The position numbers and the translations under genes were made by a program. Below the pieces are notes generated by a model. It made no database searches and was not told where the DNA came from. It was given only the letters and a program-made list of their open reading frames with translations. A stretch of 4,535 bases of DNA from a virus. Its lineage: Duplodnaviria > Heunggongvirae > Uroviricota > Caudoviricetes. Of the stretch, positions 1 to 4,535 are shown piece by piece (position 1 is the stretch's first letter; each line of letters opens with the position of its first letter). The stretch lies in the IMG/VR virus record IMGVR_UViG_3300029253_000315. The stretch is one strand, 5' to 3'.

Positions 1-510
1 GATGCACCGATCATCTCAATAGGTGCAATATTTTTCGATCCGCAAACCGGAGATATAGGACCGGAATTTAGTAAGACTATCGATCTGGAAACTGCTGGCG
101 GAGTCATTGATCGGGACACCATTAAATGGTGGCTTAAGCAATCACGCGAAGCGCAATCTGCCATTATGACCGATGAAATCCCGTTAGATGATGCACTGTT
201 ACAATTGCGGGAATTTATCGACGAAAACTCCGGTGAATTTTTTGTTCAGGTCTGGGGAAATGGAGCCAACTTCGACAACACAATTTTGCGCCGTTCATAC
301 GAACGGCAGGGGATCCCCTGCCCGTGGCGTTACTACAACGATCGCGATGTACGCACAATCGTTGAGCTGGGGAAAGCCATAGACTTCGATGCCAGAACGG
401 CTATTCCATTCGAAGGTGAGCGCCATAATGCACTTGATGACGCCCGTTACCAGGCAAAATACGTTTCAGCTATCTGGCAAAAACTGATCCCGAGTCAGGC
501 TGATTTTTAA
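1..510 (+). CDS. Phage-associated DEDDh (DnaQ/RNase T-like) 3'-5' exonuclease, 5'-partial: frame 1 is open from base 1, so the N-terminus (including the Exo I motif) lies upstream of the window
   Basis: Frame 1 has no stop from 1 to the TAA at 508-510. The translation contains an Exo II-like motif (WGNGANFDNTIL) and an Exo III-like motif (HNALDDARYQAKY, His-x4-Asp pattern). Its position upstream of xis-int matches the accessory (ea-like) region of lambdoid prophages. Family assignment is from motif recall, not a database search. Confidence 0.6.
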   Translation, partial: DAPIISIGAIFFDPQTGDIGPEFSKTIDLETAGGVIDRDTIKWWLKQSREAQSAIMTDEIPLDDALLQLREFIDENSGEFFVQVWGNGANFDNTILRRSYERQGIPCPWRYYNDRDVRTIVELGKAIDFDARTAIPFEGERHNALDDARYQAKYVSAIWQKLIPSQADF

Positions 511-568: not shown

Positions 569-772
569 ATGAGCAGCTTATTTTTAACCGAAGATGAATT
601 GCTAATATTAACGGGCTGCAAATATGCAAGCCACCAGCGAAAATGGTTAATGGAAAACGGGCTTCCGTTCTATACCAATCGTAGTGGCAAACCGATTGTC
701 AGCCGGGATCTATTTACCTGCAATAAAACTTTACCACCACGCGAGGTAGAGCCGAATTTTGGTGCGATCTGA
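569..772 (+). CDS. Small excisionase-like protein (DUF4224-like; putative recombination directionality factor)
   Basis: 67-aa ORF immediately upstream of the integrase, with its stop overlapping the integrase start (TGATG, 770-774). The N-terminal segment LFLTEDELLILTGCK...WLMENGLPFY resembles DUF4224-type proteins typically encoded next to phage integrases. Function inferred from context and recalled family similarity. Confidence 0.5.
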   Translation: MSSLFLTEDELLILTGCKYASHQRKWLMENGLPFYTNRSGKPIVSRDLFTCNKTLPPREVEPNFGAI

Positions 773-1797
773 TGGGAAGACGAAGGAAAAATCCTGAACA
801 CGAAAAATTACCTCCAAATGTATACCCAAATAAATATAGTTATGTATGGAAACCAACATCCAGAGAATCTGTCACACTAACCGCCATCAAGGATGGTTTA
901 GCTGCTTTATGGAAAAAGTATGAGGAAACTGTAAATAATCGCGATCGTGCAATGACATTCGGTCGCTTGTGGGAAAAATTCCTCGCCAGCGCCTATTACA
1001 GTGACCTTAGTCCAAGAACACAAAAAGATTATCTGCAACATCAAAAAAAATTGCTTGCCGTATTCGGTAAGGTACCAGCGGATTCCATAAAACCAGAACA
1101 CATCCGTCGATACATGGACAAAAGAGGGGAGCAGAGTAAAACGCAAGCCAACCATGAAAAAAGCAGTATGTCCCGTGTTTACAGTTGGGGGTATGAGCGA
1201 GGGTACGTCAAGGCTAACCCATGTGCAGGTGTAAGTAAATTCAAGGCCAAAAACCGCGAACGATATGTAACCGACAAAGAATACCAGGCAGTATTAAGCG
1301 TTGCACCTCTTCCTGTTTTTATCGCAATGGAAATTGCCTATCTGTGTGCAGCGAGGGTTTCCGATGTGTTATCGCTGAAATGGGAACAGATTGGAAACGA
1401 CGGGATATTCATCCAGCAAGGGAAAACCGGAAAAAAACAGATAAAAGCATGGAGTCCACGATTACAGGCAGCGATCGAAAAAGCAAAACAGTTACCAAAA
1501 TCTGCCTATGTGATCAGCAATCAATACGGCAACCGATATATGTACAAAGGCTTTAACGAAATGTGGGTAGAAGCAAGAAATCGTGCTGGAAAAATTTCAG
1601 GTATTTTAACCGACTTCACCTTTCATGATCTGAAGGCGAAAGGAATTTCAGACTATGAAGGAAGCAGCCGGGATAAGCAACTTTTCTCTGGTCACAAAAC
1701 CGAAGGGCAAGTGCTAATCTATGACAGGAAGGTTAAAGTTTCACCAACACTTGATGTCCCGTTACCTGAAAATATTCCAAGAAAATATTCCAAGTAA
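772..1797 (+). CDS. int: Lambda-family tyrosine recombinase (prophage integrase), with Lys at the Arg-II position
   Basis: 341-aa ORF. The C-terminus aligns by eye with the lambda Int catalytic region: ARVSD (Arg-I, codon 1354-1356), QGKTGKK, FHDLKAKG (His 1624-1626; Lys 1633-1635 where Arg-II is expected), SGHK (His 1693-1695), LIYDRK (Tyr nucleophile 1720-1722). It sits 52 bp from the 3' end of tRNA-Ser. Confidence 0.9.
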   Translation: MGRRRKNPEHEKLPPNVYPNKYSYVWKPTSRESVTLTAIKDGLAALWKKYEETVNNRDRAMTFGRLWEKFLASAYYSDLSPRTQKDYLQHQKKLLAVFGKVPADSIKPEHIRRYMDKRGEQSKTQANHEKSSMSRVYSWGYERGYVKANPCAGVSKFKAKNRERYVTDKEYQAVLSVAPLPVFIAMEIAYLCAARVSDVLSLKWEQIGNDGIFIQQGKTGKKQIKAWSPRLQAAIEKAKQLPKSAYVISNQYGNRYMYKGFNEMWVEARNRAGKISGILTDFTFHDLKAKGISDYEGSSRDKQLFSGHKTEGQVLIYDRKVKVSPTLDVPLPENIPRKYSK

Positions 1798-1804
1798 TTC
1801 CAAG
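1772..1804 (+). repeat. Three direct repeats of ATTCCAAG (1774-1781, 1787-1794, 1797-1804) spanning the int stop codon; candidate arm-type integrase binding sites of the attachment region
   Basis: Read directly: aatATTCCAAGaaaatATTCCAAGtaATTCCAAGtg. Spacing is 13 and 10 bp. Location is between the int coding end and the tRNA 3' end where the att core is expected. Confidence 0.35.
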
Positions 1805-1849
1805 TGTGATTTTTGTCACTGACTTAATGATGTGTAAGTGATTGAATTT

Positions 1850-1939
1850 TGGCGGAGAGAGGGGGATTTGAACCCCCGGTGGAGTTGCCCCCACTCCGGT
1901 TTTCGAGACCGGTCCGTTCAGCCGCTCCGGCATCTCTCC
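1850..1939 (-). tRNA. serU: tRNA-Ser (anticodon CGA), 90 nt with long variable arm and encoded CCA
   Basis: The reverse complement of 1850-1939 reads GGAGAGATGCCGGAGCGGCTGAACGGACCGGTCTCGAAAACCGGAGTGGGGGCAACTCCACCGGGGGTTCAAATCCCCCTCTCTCCGCCA. It has a 7-bp acceptor stem (GGAGAGA/TCTCTCC), an anticodon stem CCGGT/ACCGG with loop CTCGAAA (anticodon CGA), and a T-arm GGGGG-TTCAAAT-CCCCC. The serU assignment rests on recalled E. coli K-12 synteny (serU-mtfA-asnT). Confidence 0.93.
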
Positions 1940-2032
1940 GTTCAGATGGTTGCCATGATGCCAGGAAATTTGGCATTTTAACAGTCCCTGTCCGTGCAAT
2001 TTTGTTCAAGTGACGAGTTTGCGAGCAAAACG

Positions 2033-2830
2033 ATGATTAAGTGGCCCTGGAAAGTACAAGAATCAGCACATCAAACTGCCCTTCCCTGGCAGGAAGCACT
2101 ATCGATCCCCCTTTTAACGTGTCTGACGGAACAGGAACAAAGCAAATTAGTCACTCTTGCCGAACGTTTTTTACAGCAAAAGCGGCTTGTTCCTTTACAG
2201 GGCTTTGAACTGGATTCATTAAGAAGCTGCCGGATAGCACTTCTATTTTGCCTACCCGTTCTGGAGTTAGGACTGGAATGGCTGGATGGTTTTCATGAAG
2301 TCTTAATTTATCCTGCGCCATTTGTGGTCGATGATGAATGGGAAGACGATATCGGTCTGGTGCATAACCAACGTATTGTTCAGTCAGGTCAGAGCTGGCA
2401 GCAAGGGCCTATCGTTTTGAACTGGTTGGATATACAAGATTCTTTTGATGCTTCTGGTTTTAACCTGATTATTCATGAAGTCGCTCATAAGCTGGACACC
2501 CGTAACGGCGATCGCGCCAGCGGAGTTCCCTTTATTCCGTTGCGTGAGGTTGCTGGCTGGGAACACGATCTTCATGCTGCAATGAACAACATTCAGGAAG
2601 AAATCGAATTGGTTGGCGAGAATGCGGCGAGCATTGATGCTTATGCTGCCAGTGATCCTGCTGAATGTTTTGCCGTACTTTCTGAATATTTCTTTAGCGC
2701 CCCAGAACTTTTTGCTCCTCGTTTCCCTTCATTGTGGCAACGTTTCTGCCAATTTTATCAACAAGATCCTTTGCAGAGACTGCATCGCACTAATGATACA
2801 GACTCGTTTTCGGCGACGAATGTTCATTAA
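2033..2830 (+). CDS. mtfA: MtfA (Mlc titration factor A; DUF980/M90-type zinc peptidase), 265 aa
   Basis: Translation from the ATG at 2033 begins [14 protein letters not shown], which I recognise as the E. coli MtfA N-terminus. It contains an HEXXH zinc-binding motif (IIHEVAHKL). The ORF-track start at 1994 adds 13 residues ([13 protein letters not shown]) that I treat as a spurious upstream extension. Confidence 0.9.
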
Positions 2831-2855
2831 TTAACAACTTTGCAGATTAATTAAC
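2826..2855 (+). promoter_or_regulatory. Duplicated AT-rich element ATTAATTAAC (2826-2835 and 2846-2855) upstream of the asnT promoter; possible UP element or Fis-type activator sites
   Basis: Read directly; two exact 10-bp copies 20 bp apart, each containing the palindrome TTAATTAA. The second copy is centred roughly 70 bp upstream of the predicted transcription start. The first copy overlaps the mtfA stop codon. Confidence 0.3.
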
Positions 2856-2883
2856 CAATTGAAATGACTTATGAAATTTAGTG

Positions 2884-2920
2884 TTGACAGACAAGGTACC
2901 GCTAAGTAATATGCGCCCCG
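2884..2920 (+). promoter_or_regulatory. Sigma70 promoter for tRNA-Asn: -35 TTGACA (2884-2889), 17-bp spacer, -10 TAATAT (2907-2912), GC-rich discriminator GCGCCCCG (2913-2920)
   Basis: Read directly. Consensus -35, optimal spacer and near-consensus -10 lie 18 bp upstream of the mature tRNA 5' end. A GC-rich discriminator is typical of stringently controlled stable-RNA promoters. Confidence 0.6.
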
Positions 2921-2930
2921 TTCACACGAT

Positions 2931-3006
2931 TCCTCTGTAGTTCAGTCGGTAGAACGGCGGACTGTTAATCCGTATGTCACTGGTTCGAGTCCAGTCAGAG
3001 GAGCCA
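2931..3006 (+). tRNA. asnT: tRNA-Asn (anticodon GUU), 76 nt with encoded CCA
   Basis: Sequence TCCTCTGTAGTTCAGTCGGTAGAACGGCGGACTGTTAATCCGTATGTCACTGGTTCGAGTCCAGTCAGAGGAGCCA, with anticodon loop CTGTTAA (GTT), matches the E. coli tRNA-Asn as I recall it. The asnT copy is assigned by adjacency to mtfA. Confidence 0.95.
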
Positions 3007-3168
3007 GATTCAAGTTTTCATGCTTATCTGTACGTTTATATTTGTTTACGATTCAGTAAGTTAGCGTGAAAATCCTTGCCGGTGCGTATCTGGTTTTATC
3101 TCCGCATCGGGATAATTTGGTGGTCAGATCTGGGGTCAGTTTGGTTCGATTCTGGAGTGACCCCCAAA

Positions 3169-4437
3169 ATGTCTTTAAACGATTCTAAAATCCGCAAGTT
3201 AAAATCTTCTTCCCGTCCGGTAAAACTCTCCGACTCTCACGGTCTGTATCTGCTCGTCAATCCGGGCGGTTCACGCATCTGGTATCTCAAATATCGTTTC
3301 AACGGAAAAGAATCCAGAGTCAGTCTTGGCGCATACCCGCTGGTCTCACTGGCAGAAGCCAGGCAACAGCGCGACGGTATCCGCAAGTTACTGGCGCAGA
3401 ATATCAACCCGGCGCAGCAGCGCATGGCAGAGAAAGCCGCCTGCTCCCCTGAAAAGTGCTTTAAAGCGGTGGCGGTGGCGCTGGCCTGGCACAAAACCAA
3501 CAAAAAATGGTCGGCTGATTATGCCGCCCGTATTCTCGCCAGTATGGAAAACCATATCTTCCCGGCGGTTGGTCATTTGCCCGTTGCCAAACTTAAAACG
3601 CAGGATTTCACTGCCCTGCTGAGGGTTATTGAGGATAAGGGCTTTCTGGAAGTCGCGTCCCGCACGCGGCAGCAACTCAGCAACATCATGCGCTATGCCG
3701 TATAGCAGGGGCTTACCGAAAGCAATCCGGCGCAGCATCTGGATGGCGTTGTCTCCTCCCCCGTAAAGAATCACTACCCCGCGTTACCGCTGGAGCGGTT
3801 GTCCGAACTGCTTGGCCGCATCGGTGACTATCAGCAGGGCCGGGAGTTAACCCGGCTGGCGGAGGTGCTGACACTGCACCTGTTCATCCGTTCCAGCGAA
3901 CTGCGTTTCGCCCGCTGGAGCGAGATCGATTTCAGGCACAAAATCTGGACCATCCCCGCCACCCGCGAGGCCATCGACAAAGTTCGGTTTTCGGGGCGTG
4001 GCGCAAAAATGCGTACTCCGCATATCGTACCGCTCTCCCGCCAGGCGATTGCCCTTCTGAAACAGATACAGGAGCTTTCCGGCCATCTGGATCTGGTGTT
4101 TCCCGGCGATCATAATCCGTACAAGCCAATGAGCGAAAACACAACCAACCGGGCGCTGCGCCTGATGGGGTATGACACGAAAACTGAAATCTGCGGGCAT
4201 GGACTCAGGGCAATGGCCTGTAGCGCCCTGGTGGAGTCGGACCTGTGGTCACGCGATACGGTGGAGCGGCAAATGAGCCACCAGGAGCGCAACAGCGTGC
4301 GGGCGGCATATGTGCATAAAGCAGAGCATCTGGAGGCCAGAAAGGCCATGATGCAGTGGTGGTCGGATTATCTGGATGTGTGCCGCGAGGGGTATGTTGC
4401 GCCGTACATTTATGCCCGGCAGCATAAGGCAGCCTGA
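3169..4437 (+). pseudogene. int: P4-family (phage/island-type) tyrosine integrase interrupted by one in-frame amber codon (TAG at 3703-3705); fragments 3169-3705 and 3706/3799-4437 are in the same frame
   Basis: ORF-track entries 3076..3705 and 3799..4437 are both in frame 1, and I translated 3706-3798 with no further stop. The product from the ATG at 3169 starts MSLNDSKIRKLK...GLYLLVNPGGSRIWYLKYRFNGKESRVSLGAYP, an N-terminus typical of P4-type integrases. The downstream part carries catalytic-domain motifs (IRSSELRFARWSEIDF, CGHGLRAMA, VRAAYVHKAEHLEARKAMMQWWSDYLD). It lies immediately 3' of tRNA-Asn in the same orientation, the usual arrangement for asn-tRNA islands. GGAG at 3154-3157 is a plausible Shine-Dalgarno. 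Confidence 0.8.
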
Positions 4438-4535
4438 ATCAGAAATAGCGTAAATCATTAAAACCGGAAAAGCAGATCCTGGGTAATGACTCCAACTTAT
4501 TGATAGTGTTTTATGTTCAGATAATGCCCGATGAC

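What the first reader, a model, noticed from the sequence alone, without database searches (positions are those of the whole stretch)
1772..3168. Back-to-back tRNA integration hotspot: two different integrase elements flank serU-mtfA-asnT with tRNA 3' ends pointing outward
tRNA-Ser(CGA) on the minus strand has its 3' end at 1850 facing the lambdoid int (stop at 1797), and tRNA-Asn on the plus strand has its 3' end at 3006 facing the P4-type int (start at 3169). Only about 1.1 kb of core DNA (mtfA and promoters) separates two independently acquired elements. Both tRNA genes are full length with CCA, consistent with site-specific integration that regenerates the tRNA 3' end. Such double hotspots are where novel cargo accumulates; the cargo itself is outside this window on both sides.
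Basis: partly seen in the sequence, partly recalled or inferred. Interest (0 to 1): 0.55.

Follow-up and report, generated by a model that had tools for sequence, protein, structure and literature searches.

The report
Known serU/asnT double integration site
Two mobile elements, a lambda-like prophage and the decayed remnant of a small genomic island, sit back to back at two neighbouring E. coli tRNA genes; this arrangement is real but common and already described.

Summary
tRNA-Ser(CGA) lies at 1850-1939 (-) and tRNA-Asn(GTT) at 2931-3006 (+). Their 3' ends face a lambda-type xis-int module (569-1797) and a P4-type integrase gene (3169-4437). The 1157 bp between the two tRNA 3' ends is colinear with E. 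coli K-12 serU-mtfA-asnT at 99.4% identity, and K-12 has neither integrase.

Three refinements:
- The prophage/host junction lies inside serU. The 3' 62 nt of the tRNA (1850-1911) come from the phage and carry a compensatory G-C pair in place of the host A-U pair in the variable arm. In a relative, the displaced host fragment sits at the far end of the prophage. The crossover therefore maps to the anticodon stem-loop (1893-1911).
- The asnT integrase is a pseudogene, with an in-frame TAG at 3703-3705. An IS1 end follows 44 bp after its stop codon.
- In relatives, the asnT element is a 4-10 kb remnant bounded by 16-bp repeats of the asnT 3' end.

All four occupancy combinations of the two sites occur, so the two elements were acquired independently. 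About 20% of complete E. coli genomes carry this serU module and about half have asnT occupied. Adjacent serU and asnT islands are already tabulated for strains 536 and CFT073. This is already known and of low interest.

The parts
1..510 (+). 3' end of the prophage exonuclease gene (the gene starts left of the window)
   Evidence: Pfam Rv2179c-like 3'-5' exoribonuclease domain, E 1.3e-36. PHROG exonuclease families match. In relatives this is the C-terminus of an 808-826 aa exonuclease downstream of dicB-ydfD.
569..772 (+). Excisionase (xis), DUF4224; overlaps the int start by 1 nt
   Evidence: Pfam DUF4224, E 1.9e-15. PHROG phrog_1266 'excisionase', E 3.1e-21.
772..1797 (+). Lambda-type tyrosine integrase, 341 aa, apparently intact
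   Evidence: Aligns with lambda Int residues 1-338, E 8e-13. It has Pfam Phage_integrase and SAM-like domains. The exact protein is indexed in 3120 blocks of public assemblies. The C-terminus ..YSK and the catalytic R195, K218, H285, H308 and Y317 are conserved in the family, and K288 replaces lambda R311 in all 18 aligned members.
1774..1804 (+). Three direct ATTCCAAG motifs (1774, 1787, 1797); candidate arm-type Int binding sites of the P arm (inferred)
   Evidence: Three matches against 0.23 expected in the window, all within 31 bp. The only two matches in 36 kb of 64EVA prophage DNA lie within about 110 bp of the distal att junction.
1835..1911 (.). attL identity block. 1850-1911 is the phage-supplied 3' 62 nt of serU, and 1835-1849 is a partly similar 3' flank. 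The crossover maps to 1893-1911 (anticodon stem-loop; anticodon loop 1901-1907).
   Evidence: The distal end of the 64EVA prophage carries the K-12 flank plus 62 nt of serU with the K-12 A/T alleles, followed by phage DNA. The G1881/C1892 alleles track prophage presence in 15 of 15 occupied against 0 of 8 unoccupied copies. The SE11 genome paper lists a 77-nt duplication for its serU prophage.
1850..1939 (-). serU, tRNA-Ser(CGA), full length with CCA; a chimera of a host 5' part and a phage 3' part
   Evidence: ARAGORN and Rfam, 57 bits. The two differences from K-12 are tRNA positions 48 and 59, which pair with each other in the variable-arm stem (G-C against A-U).
2033..2830 (+). mtfA (Mlc titration factor / peptidase M90), a core gene
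   Evidence: Pfam Peptidase_M90, E 4e-60. Annotated as mtfA in K-12 and all relatives.
2884..2912 (+). Promoter-like site upstream of asnT (TTGACA-17-TAATAT)
   Evidence: Consensus scan, 10 of 12 matches. This is a consensus match only.
2931..3006 (+). asnT, tRNA-Asn(GTT), full length with CCA
   Evidence: ARAGORN and Rfam, 72.6 bits. Identical to K-12 asnT.
2991..3006 (+). 16-bp att core of the asnT element (CCAGTCAGAGGAGCCA; T-stem/acceptor junction)
   Evidence: The same 16-mer recurs as a direct repeat 10.4 kb downstream in 64EVA and 4.1 kb downstream in EC6563. In both it is followed by the K-12 flank AATTCTAAAAATTCGC.
3169..4437 (+). P4-type integrase pseudogene: in-frame TAG at 3703-3705 (codon 179) and an in-frame 6-bp duplication at 3466-3471
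   Evidence: Pfam Arm-DNA-bind_3 plus Phage_int_M match residues 1-178, and Phage_integrase matches the part after the stop. The intact 420-aa homologue in O145:H28 RM13514 has CAG at the position of the TAG. RefSeq marks the gene 'internal stop' in EC6563 and 64EVA. The conceptual product is 97.6% identical to the O145 protein and 69% identical to the yersiniabactin-island (HPI) Int.
4482..4535 (.). Terminal inverted repeat and end of an IS1 copy, inserted 44 bp after the int stop codon
   Evidence: All E. coli matches to the window end at 4481. Bases 4480-4535 match the end of an annotated IS1 in 64EVA at 96%. The identical junction occurs in GCA_905134115.1, next to a gene with IS1 transposase domains.

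Best explanation
The window is the E. coli chromosomal segment serU-mtfA-asnT, with a different integrated element on each side.

Left side. This is the int-proximal end (attL) of a Qin/lambda-like prophage: exonuclease, excisionase, integrase. Its lambda-type integrase recombined a phage attP that carries a copy of the 3' 62 nt of tRNA-Ser(CGA) with the host serU gene. The crossover fell in the anticodon stem-loop. The lysogen therefore expresses a chimeric but complete tRNA whose 3' part is phage DNA, and the original host 3' part is displaced to the far end of the prophage.

Right side. This is the remnant of a small island whose P4-type integrase, a 69%-identical relative of the yersiniabactin-island (HPI) integrase, targeted the last 16 bp of asnT. 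That integrase is now inactivated by a nonsense mutation, and an IS1 has inserted just downstream, so the remnant is most likely fixed in place.

The two elements arrived independently.

Shown here: the gene content, the boundaries, the att repeats in relatives, the allele swap in serU, the pseudogene state and the independent assortment. Inferred: the exact crossover position, the ATTCCAAG motifs as arm-type sites, and the activity of the left integrase.
For: - tRNA genes.
- Protein families.
- K-12 comparison: 1157 bp colinear at 99.4%, with both integrases absent.
- serU side: the displaced 62-nt serU fragment with host alleles and host flank sits at the distal end of the 64EVA prophage, about 46 kb away, beyond the tail-fibre genes. 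The G/C against A/T variable-arm alleles segregate perfectly with prophage presence, 15 against 8 copies, and form a compensatory pair.
- asnT side: the island is bounded by 16-bp repeats in 64EVA (10.4 kb; Rhs cargo) and EC6563 (4.1 kb). The window has TAG where the intact O145 homologue has CAG. IS1 follows at 4482.
- Independent assortment: the serU int occurs with HPI (L007-L012, L014), with an empty asnT (L013) and with this remnant (L001, L017, L019). The remnant also occurs with an empty serU (L015, L016, L018, L020-L023).
- Frequencies among 5426 complete E. coli genomes: serU module 1094; this asnT int at 90% identity or more, 480; HPI-type int about 2123; both sites occupied 489, against roughly 460-530 expected if independent.
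- Literature: PAI-serU and PAI-asnT (HPI) lie about 1.6 kb apart in strains 536 and CFT073 (PMC7545054). serU is a lambdoid prophage site in O145:H28 and SE11 (PMC7067040 and PMC2608844). Anticodon-loop and T-stem/acceptor-junction crossover classes are described in PMC4383910.
Against: - The window holds only one att copy of each element, so the distal ends, and whether the prophage is complete in the source genome, are inferred from relatives.
- The source genome was not found. The best complete genome is 99.5% identical and lacks the IS1, and the scan for the exact junction in genome contigs gave 0 hits.
- RefSeq annotation marks the left integrase as 'frameshifted' in 64EVA and RM13514.
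- The left integrase has Lys where lambda Int has the catalytic Arg311, so its activity is not proven.
- The count of 489 co-occupied genomes cannot separate this asnT integrase from the HPI one.
Confidence: 0.9

Rival explanations
1. The asnT-side element is still a functional mobile island. Its integrase would be made by readthrough of the TAG, or excision would be catalysed in trans by a related integrase such as the HPI Int. Unknown cargo would lie just beyond the window.
For: The reading frame continues in phase after the single TAG, and the downstream catalytic motifs (HGLR and the C-terminal part) are intact. In relatives the 16-bp att repeats are still perfect.
Against: - The TAG separates the DNA-binding domains from the catalytic domain.
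- The same nonsense allele is indexed in 549 blocks of public assemblies and is shared by 64EVA and EC6563, which indicates a vertically inherited remnant.
- IS1 follows the gene directly. In the one assembly with the identical junction, the island interior and the neighbouring chromosome up to wcaD are gone.
- Relatives carry only 4-10 kb, with a second degenerate integrase-like gene or Rhs.
Confidence: 0.06
2. One composite element spans both tRNA genes. The deposited 'phage' records ON470583 and ON470580 imply this, because they include the integrase, serU, mtfA, asnT and the second integrase.
For: Two records in the phage collection contain the whole arrangement at 97.7-99.4% identity.
Against: Those records are partial prophage predictions that run into host DNA. 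The middle block is colinear with K-12 at 99.4%, and K-12 has neither element. Each side occurs without the other. Each has its own att repeat.
Confidence: 0.02
3. The integrase genes are ancestral core genes, or the tRNA calls are wrong.
For: None found.
Against: Two independent methods call both tRNAs. About 71% of complete E. coli genomes have the K-12-type empty serU junction and about 49% have the empty asnT junction. Flanking att repeats exist.
Confidence: 0.01

Closest known systems
PAI-serU (PAI VII536, TcpC island) next to PAI-asnT (PAI IV536 = HPI, yersiniabactin) in uropathogenic E. coli 536 and CFT073
   Same: The two tRNA genes, the outward-facing 3' ends and the roughly 1.1-1.6 kb core spacer containing mtfA are the same. 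Two unrelated integrated elements lie back to back (PMC7545054).
   Different: Here the serU occupant is a lambdoid prophage rather than the 22-kb TcpC island. The asnT occupant is a decayed remnant with a different integrase (69% aa identity to the HPI Int), not the HPI.
Lambdoid prophages integrated at serU in STEC O145:H28, O157:H7, O103:H2 and in commensal SE11 (PP_SE11-6)
   Same: The xis-int-attL module is the same at 93-98% DNA identity in O145:H28, O157:H7 and O103:H2 genomes. serU is listed as a conserved prophage site, and in O145:H28 its prophage carries T3SS effectors (PMC7067040). The 77-nt duplication reported for SE11 matches the 1835-1911 block.
   Different: The cargo of the window's own prophage is unknown because the window ends inside the exonuclease gene.
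Phage lambda Int/Xis site-specific recombination
   Same: The N-terminal arm-binding, core-binding and catalytic domains align over the whole length. xis lies directly upstream and overlaps int. int is transcribed toward att. Repeated short motifs lie in both arms.
   Different: The target is a tRNA anticodon stem-loop with a 62-77 bp identity block, not the 15-bp lambda core between gal and bio. The second catalytic Arg (lambda R311) is Lys throughout this integrase family.
HPI / P4-type integrases that target asn tRNA genes
   Same: It has an Arm-DNA-bind_3 N-terminal domain. The gene lies directly 3' of the tRNA gene and in the same direction. The att core is the last 16 bp of the asn tRNA gene. 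It is 69% identical to the HPI Int.
   Different: It is inactivated by a nonsense codon and no yersiniabactin genes are present. In relatives the island is 4-10 kb (Rhs) or carries type VI secretion gene remnants.

Membership tests
tRNA-targeting integrative element, anticodon-loop ('A') class (Islander / Williams classification) | An intact tRNA gene lies at one end, and a displaced 3' tRNA fragment in the same orientation lies at the other end | tested here: met
   Met in the relative 64EVA: full serU next to int and a 62-nt 3' fragment at the distal end, in the same orientation. It cannot be tested in the window itself, which holds only attL.
tRNA-targeting integrative element, anticodon-loop ('A') class (Islander / Williams classification) | The fragment extends from the tRNA 3' end to the anticodon stem-loop | tested here: met
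   The fragment covers tRNA positions 29-90. Allele swaps at positions 48 and 59 place the crossover in positions 29-47.
tRNA-targeting integrative element, anticodon-loop ('A') class (Islander / Williams classification) | A tyrosine integrase gene lies adjacent to the regenerated tRNA gene | tested here: met
   int at 772-1797 ends 52 bp from the serU 3' end.
Lambda-type (arm-binding) tyrosine integrase | Full-length similarity to lambda Int, including the N-terminal arm-binding domain | tested here: met
   phmmer alignment of residues 1-313 to lambda Int 1-338, E 8e-13.
Lambda-type (arm-binding) tyrosine integrase | Catalytic R-K-H-R-H-Y residues | tested here: inconclusive
   R195, K218, H285, H308 and Y317 are present, but the second Arg is Lys (K288). 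The Lys is invariant in all 18 diverse family members aligned, so it is a family trait rather than a lesion. Activity was not tested.
Lambda-type (arm-binding) tyrosine integrase | A cognate excisionase is encoded next to int | tested here: met
   A DUF4224 / PHROG excisionase gene at 569-772 overlaps the int start.
P4-type integrase island at a tRNA 3' end (T-stem/acceptor 'J' class), HPI-like | Arm-DNA-bind_3 (DUF4102) N-terminal domain plus a tyrosine recombinase catalytic domain | tested here: met
   PF13356, E 7.6e-25; PF22022; PF00589, E 4.4e-17.
P4-type integrase island at a tRNA 3' end (T-stem/acceptor 'J' class), HPI-like | The int gene lies directly downstream of the tRNA gene in the same orientation, and a short direct repeat of the tRNA 3' end lies at the far end | tested here: met
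   int starts 162 bp after asnT on the same strand. 16-bp repeats are found in 64EVA and EC6563. The distal repeat lies outside the window.
P4-type integrase island at a tRNA 3' end (T-stem/acceptor 'J' class), HPI-like | An uninterrupted integrase reading frame (a functional, mobile element) | tested here: not met
   There is an in-frame TAG at 3703-3705 where the intact homologue has CAG. It is therefore filed as a remnant of such an island, not as an active member.
High-pathogenicity island (HPI, yersiniabactin) | The HPI integrase and the ybt/irp/fyuA genes lie downstream of asnT | tested here: not met
   The integrase is only 72% (DNA) and 69% (protein) identical to the HPI Int of genomes where ybtS-ybtX-ybtQ-ybtP-ybtA follow it. 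Relatives with this integrase have no ybt genes.

The most novel reading that the evidence does not exclude
Lysogeny by this very common serU phage family rewrites the host's single tRNA-Ser(CGA) gene, changing the variable-arm pair 48-59 from A-U to G-C. The integrase that does this belongs to a family in which the second catalytic arginine is always lysine. If the tRNA change had a phenotype, such as altered SerRS recognition, altered stability, or escape from a tRNA-targeting nuclease, or if the Lys-type active site had distinct chemistry, either would be a modest new finding. Nothing here shows either effect. The pair change is compensatory and looks neutral.
Probability: 0.05. Interest if true: 0.35.

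Novelty: already known. Interest (0 to 1): 0.1.

Why it matters
It matters little beyond correct annotation. The locus is a textbook example of tRNA-gene integration sites and of independent use of two adjacent sites. Three practical points follow.
- The prophage boundary should be drawn inside serU, not at its 3' end.
- The asnT integrase should be annotated as a pseudogene and remnant, so no active island or novel cargo should be expected there.
- Deposited 'phage' records that include serU-mtfA-asnT overrun into host DNA.

The G/C against A/T alleles in the serU variable arm are a simple marker for past or present occupancy by this phage family.

Tried and rejected
- I searched one representative genome per species (genome contigs) for the exact int/IS1 junction, in order to extend the source assembly. 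There were 0 hits. The junction was later found in GCA_905134115.1 through an exact-protein look-up, but that assembly has no serU prophage, so it is not the source.
- I took the two full-length hits in the phage collection as possible free-phage attP sequences. They turned out to be prophage predictions that include host genes, so attP had to be reconstructed from the attL and attR of 64EVA.
- I considered that the tandem 13-bp repeat at 1768-1793 is a frameshifting duplication that makes the lambdoid int a pseudogene, as the RefSeq 'frameshifted' flags suggest. I rejected this because the 341-aa product and its ..YSK C-terminus are conserved in E. albertii, Salmonella and Siccibacter homologues, and the exact protein is extremely widespread.
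- I considered that the asnT integrase is the HPI integrase. I rejected this on 69-72% identity and on the absence of ybt genes in relatives.
- The Rfam scan of the whole window found nothing besides the two tRNAs.
- The figure of 489 of 5426 genomes cannot be read as 'this exact pair'. HPI-type integrases at 72% identity can also bring coverage above 80%.
Full report
**Observation**

ARAGORN finds exactly two tRNA genes: tRNA-Ser(cga) at 1850-1939 on the minus strand and tRNA-Asn(gtt) at 2931-3006 on the plus strand. Rfam confirms both, at 57 and 72.6 bits against a gathering score of 29, and finds no other RNA family in the window. Both genes end in CCA.

A 341-aa ORF at 772-1797 stops 52 bp from the serU 3' end. 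An ATG at 3169 lies 162 bp beyond the asnT 3' end.

**What the genes are**

Left of serU, three genes read toward the tRNA:
- The C-terminal part of a prophage exonuclease (to 510; Rv2179c-like domain, E 1.3e-36).
- A 67-aa DUF4224 protein (569-772), which PHROGs classifies as an excisionase (E 3.1e-21).
- A tyrosine integrase (772-1797).

The integrase aligns with lambda Int over its whole length, including the N-terminal arm-binding domain (E 8e-13). In relatives the genes further upstream are dicB, ydfD, cI/cro-like regulators, replication genes, Q, lysis genes, terminase, head genes and tail genes, which make up a Qin/lambda-like prophage of about 46 kb.

Between the tRNAs lies mtfA (2033-2830; Peptidase_M90, E 4e-60).

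Right of asnT is a P4-type integrase gene. It has Arm-DNA-bind_3 and Phage_int_M in residues 1-178 and the catalytic Phage_integrase domain after that. The frame is interrupted by an in-frame TAG at 3703-3705.

The last 54 bases of the window (4482-4535) are the end of an IS1.

**Comparison with K-12**

In MG1655 the order is yodB, serU, mtfA, asnT, yeeJ, with no integrase on either side. Window 1850-3006 is colinear with K-12 over 1157 nt, with no indels and 7 mismatches (99.4%). Similarity ends at the two tRNA 3' ends.

**The serU junction**

Two of the seven mismatches lie inside serU: G against A at 1881 and C against T at 1892. They are tRNA positions 48 and 59, which pair with each other in the variable-arm stem, so the change is compensatory (G-C for A-U).

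In strain 64EVA, which is 99.5% identical to the window, the far end of the prophage lies beyond the tail-fibre genes. It carries the K-12 flank, then 62 nt of the serU 3' part with the K-12 A/T alleles, then phage DNA.

Across all loci fetched, all 15 prophage-adjacent serU copies have G/C. All 8 unoccupied copies, and the displaced fragment, have A/T.

So the 3' 62 nt of the serU gene in the window (1850-1911) are phage DNA. The crossover lies 5' of position 48 of the tRNA, within 1893-1911, which is the anticodon stem-loop. This is the anticodon-centred class of tRNA attachment sites (PMC4383910).

A further 15 nt beyond the tRNA 3' end are partly similar between the phage and the host. Together with the 62 nt this gives a 77-nt block (1835-1911), which equals the 77-nt duplication tabulated for the serU prophage of strain SE11 (PMC2608844).

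**Candidate arm sites (inferred)**

ATTCCAAG occurs three times in direct orientation at 1774, 1787 and 1797, against 0.23 expected in the window. In 36 kb of the 64EVA prophage it occurs only twice, and both copies lie within about 110 bp of the distal junction. In the reconstructed attP, five copies therefore lie within about 130 bp on either side of the crossover. This is the arrangement expected for arm-type Int sites. It is an inference and was not tested.

**State of the left integrase**

RefSeq flags this gene as 'frameshifted' in 64EVA and in O145:H28 RM13514. However, the 341-aa product is indexed in 3120 blocks of public assemblies. Its C-terminus ..YSK is shared by homologues from E. 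albertii, Salmonella and Siccibacter.

Of the catalytic residues, R195, K218, H285, H308 and Y317 are present. The position of lambda R311 is Lys (K288) in all 18 diverse homologues aligned, so the Lys is a family trait rather than damage. Integrases with this Arg-to-Lys change have been noted elsewhere (PMC12884075). I regard the gene as intact, but its activity is not proven.

**The asnT element**

- The intact 420-aa homologue in O145:H28 RM13514 has CAG where the window has TAG.
- The window also has an in-frame 6-bp duplication at 3466-3471.
- The conceptual product is 97.6% identical to the O145 protein and 69% identical to the HPI integrase. At the DNA level it is 72% identical to the HPI gene.
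- In 64EVA the island is 10.4 kb (integrase pseudogene, a second integrase-like gene, Rhs). In EC6563 it is 4.1 kb.
- In both, the island is bounded by the direct repeat CCAGTCAGAGGAGCCA, and the distal copy is followed by the K-12 flank. This is the T-stem/acceptor-junction class of attachment site.
- The exact N-terminal fragment with the nonsense codon is indexed in 549 blocks of assemblies, so the pseudogene is inherited vertically.
- The window's IS1 junction is identical in GCA_905134115.1. There the IS1 is followed by colanic-acid genes (wcaD to wza), so the rest of the island and the neighbouring chromosome are deleted or rearranged. Whether the same is true of the source genome cannot be told from the window.

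**Independence and frequency**

All four occupancy states exist:
- Both sites empty: K-12.
- serU prophage only: L013.
- asnT remnant only: EC6563 and L016, L018, L020-L023.
- Both occupied: the window, 64EVA, L017 and L019.

The same serU integrase also sits next to a full HPI in L007-L012 and L014.

Counts among 5426 complete E. coli genomes:

| Feature | Genomes |
|---|---|
| K-12-type empty serU junction | 3856 |
| K-12-type empty asnT junction | 2680 |
| This xis-int module | 1094 |
| This asnT integrase at 90% identity or more | 480 |
| HPI-type integrase | about 2123 |
| At least 80% of the window covered (serU module plus either asnT integrase type) | 489 |

The 489 figure is close to the 460-530 expected if the two sites are filled independently. 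These counts ignore phylogenetic structure and are rough.

**Comparison with what is known**

The back-to-back arrangement is already tabulated. In UPEC strains 536 and CFT073, PAI-serU (the TcpC island) and PAI-asnT (HPI) lie about 1.6 kb apart (PMC7545054). serU is a recognised lambdoid prophage site in O145:H28, where the prophage carries type III effectors, and in SE11. Restoration of the tRNA gene by element-borne sequence, with a displaced fragment marking the other end, is the standard model (PMC4383910).

**Verdict**

The feature is ordinary and already known. The asnT element is a dead remnant, so the prospect of novel cargo on that side is poor. The cargo of the serU prophage in the source genome remains unknown.

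Noticed in passing
window 1633-1635 (codon K288 of the int at 772-1797): The serU-type lambda-like integrase family has an invariant Lys (motif HDLKAKG) where lambda Int has the catalytic Arg311. This holds in all 18 diverse Enterobacterales homologues aligned, although the family is evidently successful, since thousands of lysogens exist. A 2026 paper mentions other integrases with this substitution.
   Followed up: partly
L006 15168-16430 (E. coli O145:H28 RM13514, WP_000055685.1): The 'intact' homologue of the asnT integrase in O145:H28 has HGLK where the window pseudogene and the HPI Int have HGLR / HGFR. The uninterrupted copy may therefore also be catalytically impaired.
   Followed up: no
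window 772-1822; L001 20772-21822; L006 12772-13822: RefSeq/PGAP annotates the serU integrase as a 'frameshifted' pseudogene ending at window-equivalent position 1822. The 341-aa product ending at 1797 has a C-terminus conserved across genera. The flag is probably an annotation artefact, linked to the tandem 13-bp repeat at 1768-1793.
   Followed up: partly
window 4461-4535; L020 10293-10367 (GCA_905134115.1, CAJHTO010000002.1): The identical int/IS1 junction exists in a public assembly. There the IS1 is followed by colanic-acid genes (wcaD to wza), which implies an IS1-mediated deletion or rearrangement of the region from yeeJ to wcaD. That assembly also has an IS5-family insertion next to a shortened zinT and no serU prophage.
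   Followed up: partly
L003 (ON470583.1) and L004 (ON470580.1): Two GenBank 'Escherichia phage' records (vB_EcoS-689R5 and vB_EcoM-606R7, both partial genomes) contain host serU, mtfA, asnT and the neighbouring island integrase; 606R7 even includes ybtS. Their ends overrun the prophage boundary.
   Followed up: yes
window 3466-3471: An in-frame 6-bp tandem duplication (GCGGTG) adds Ala-Val to the integrase pseudogene. EC6563's pseudogene is the same 1269-nt length as the window's (consistent with the duplication, sequence not inspected); the duplication is absent from 64EVA and O145.
   Followed up: yes
L006 20893-26208 (O145:H28 RM13514, downstream of the asnT int): In O145:H28 the same integrase type heads an island carrying type VI secretion genes (tssG, tssF, vgrG) and a HigA-like antitoxin. 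The island ends in an IS3 and a yeeJ gene truncated at its 5' end. Cargo of this island family therefore varies between lineages.
   Followed up: no
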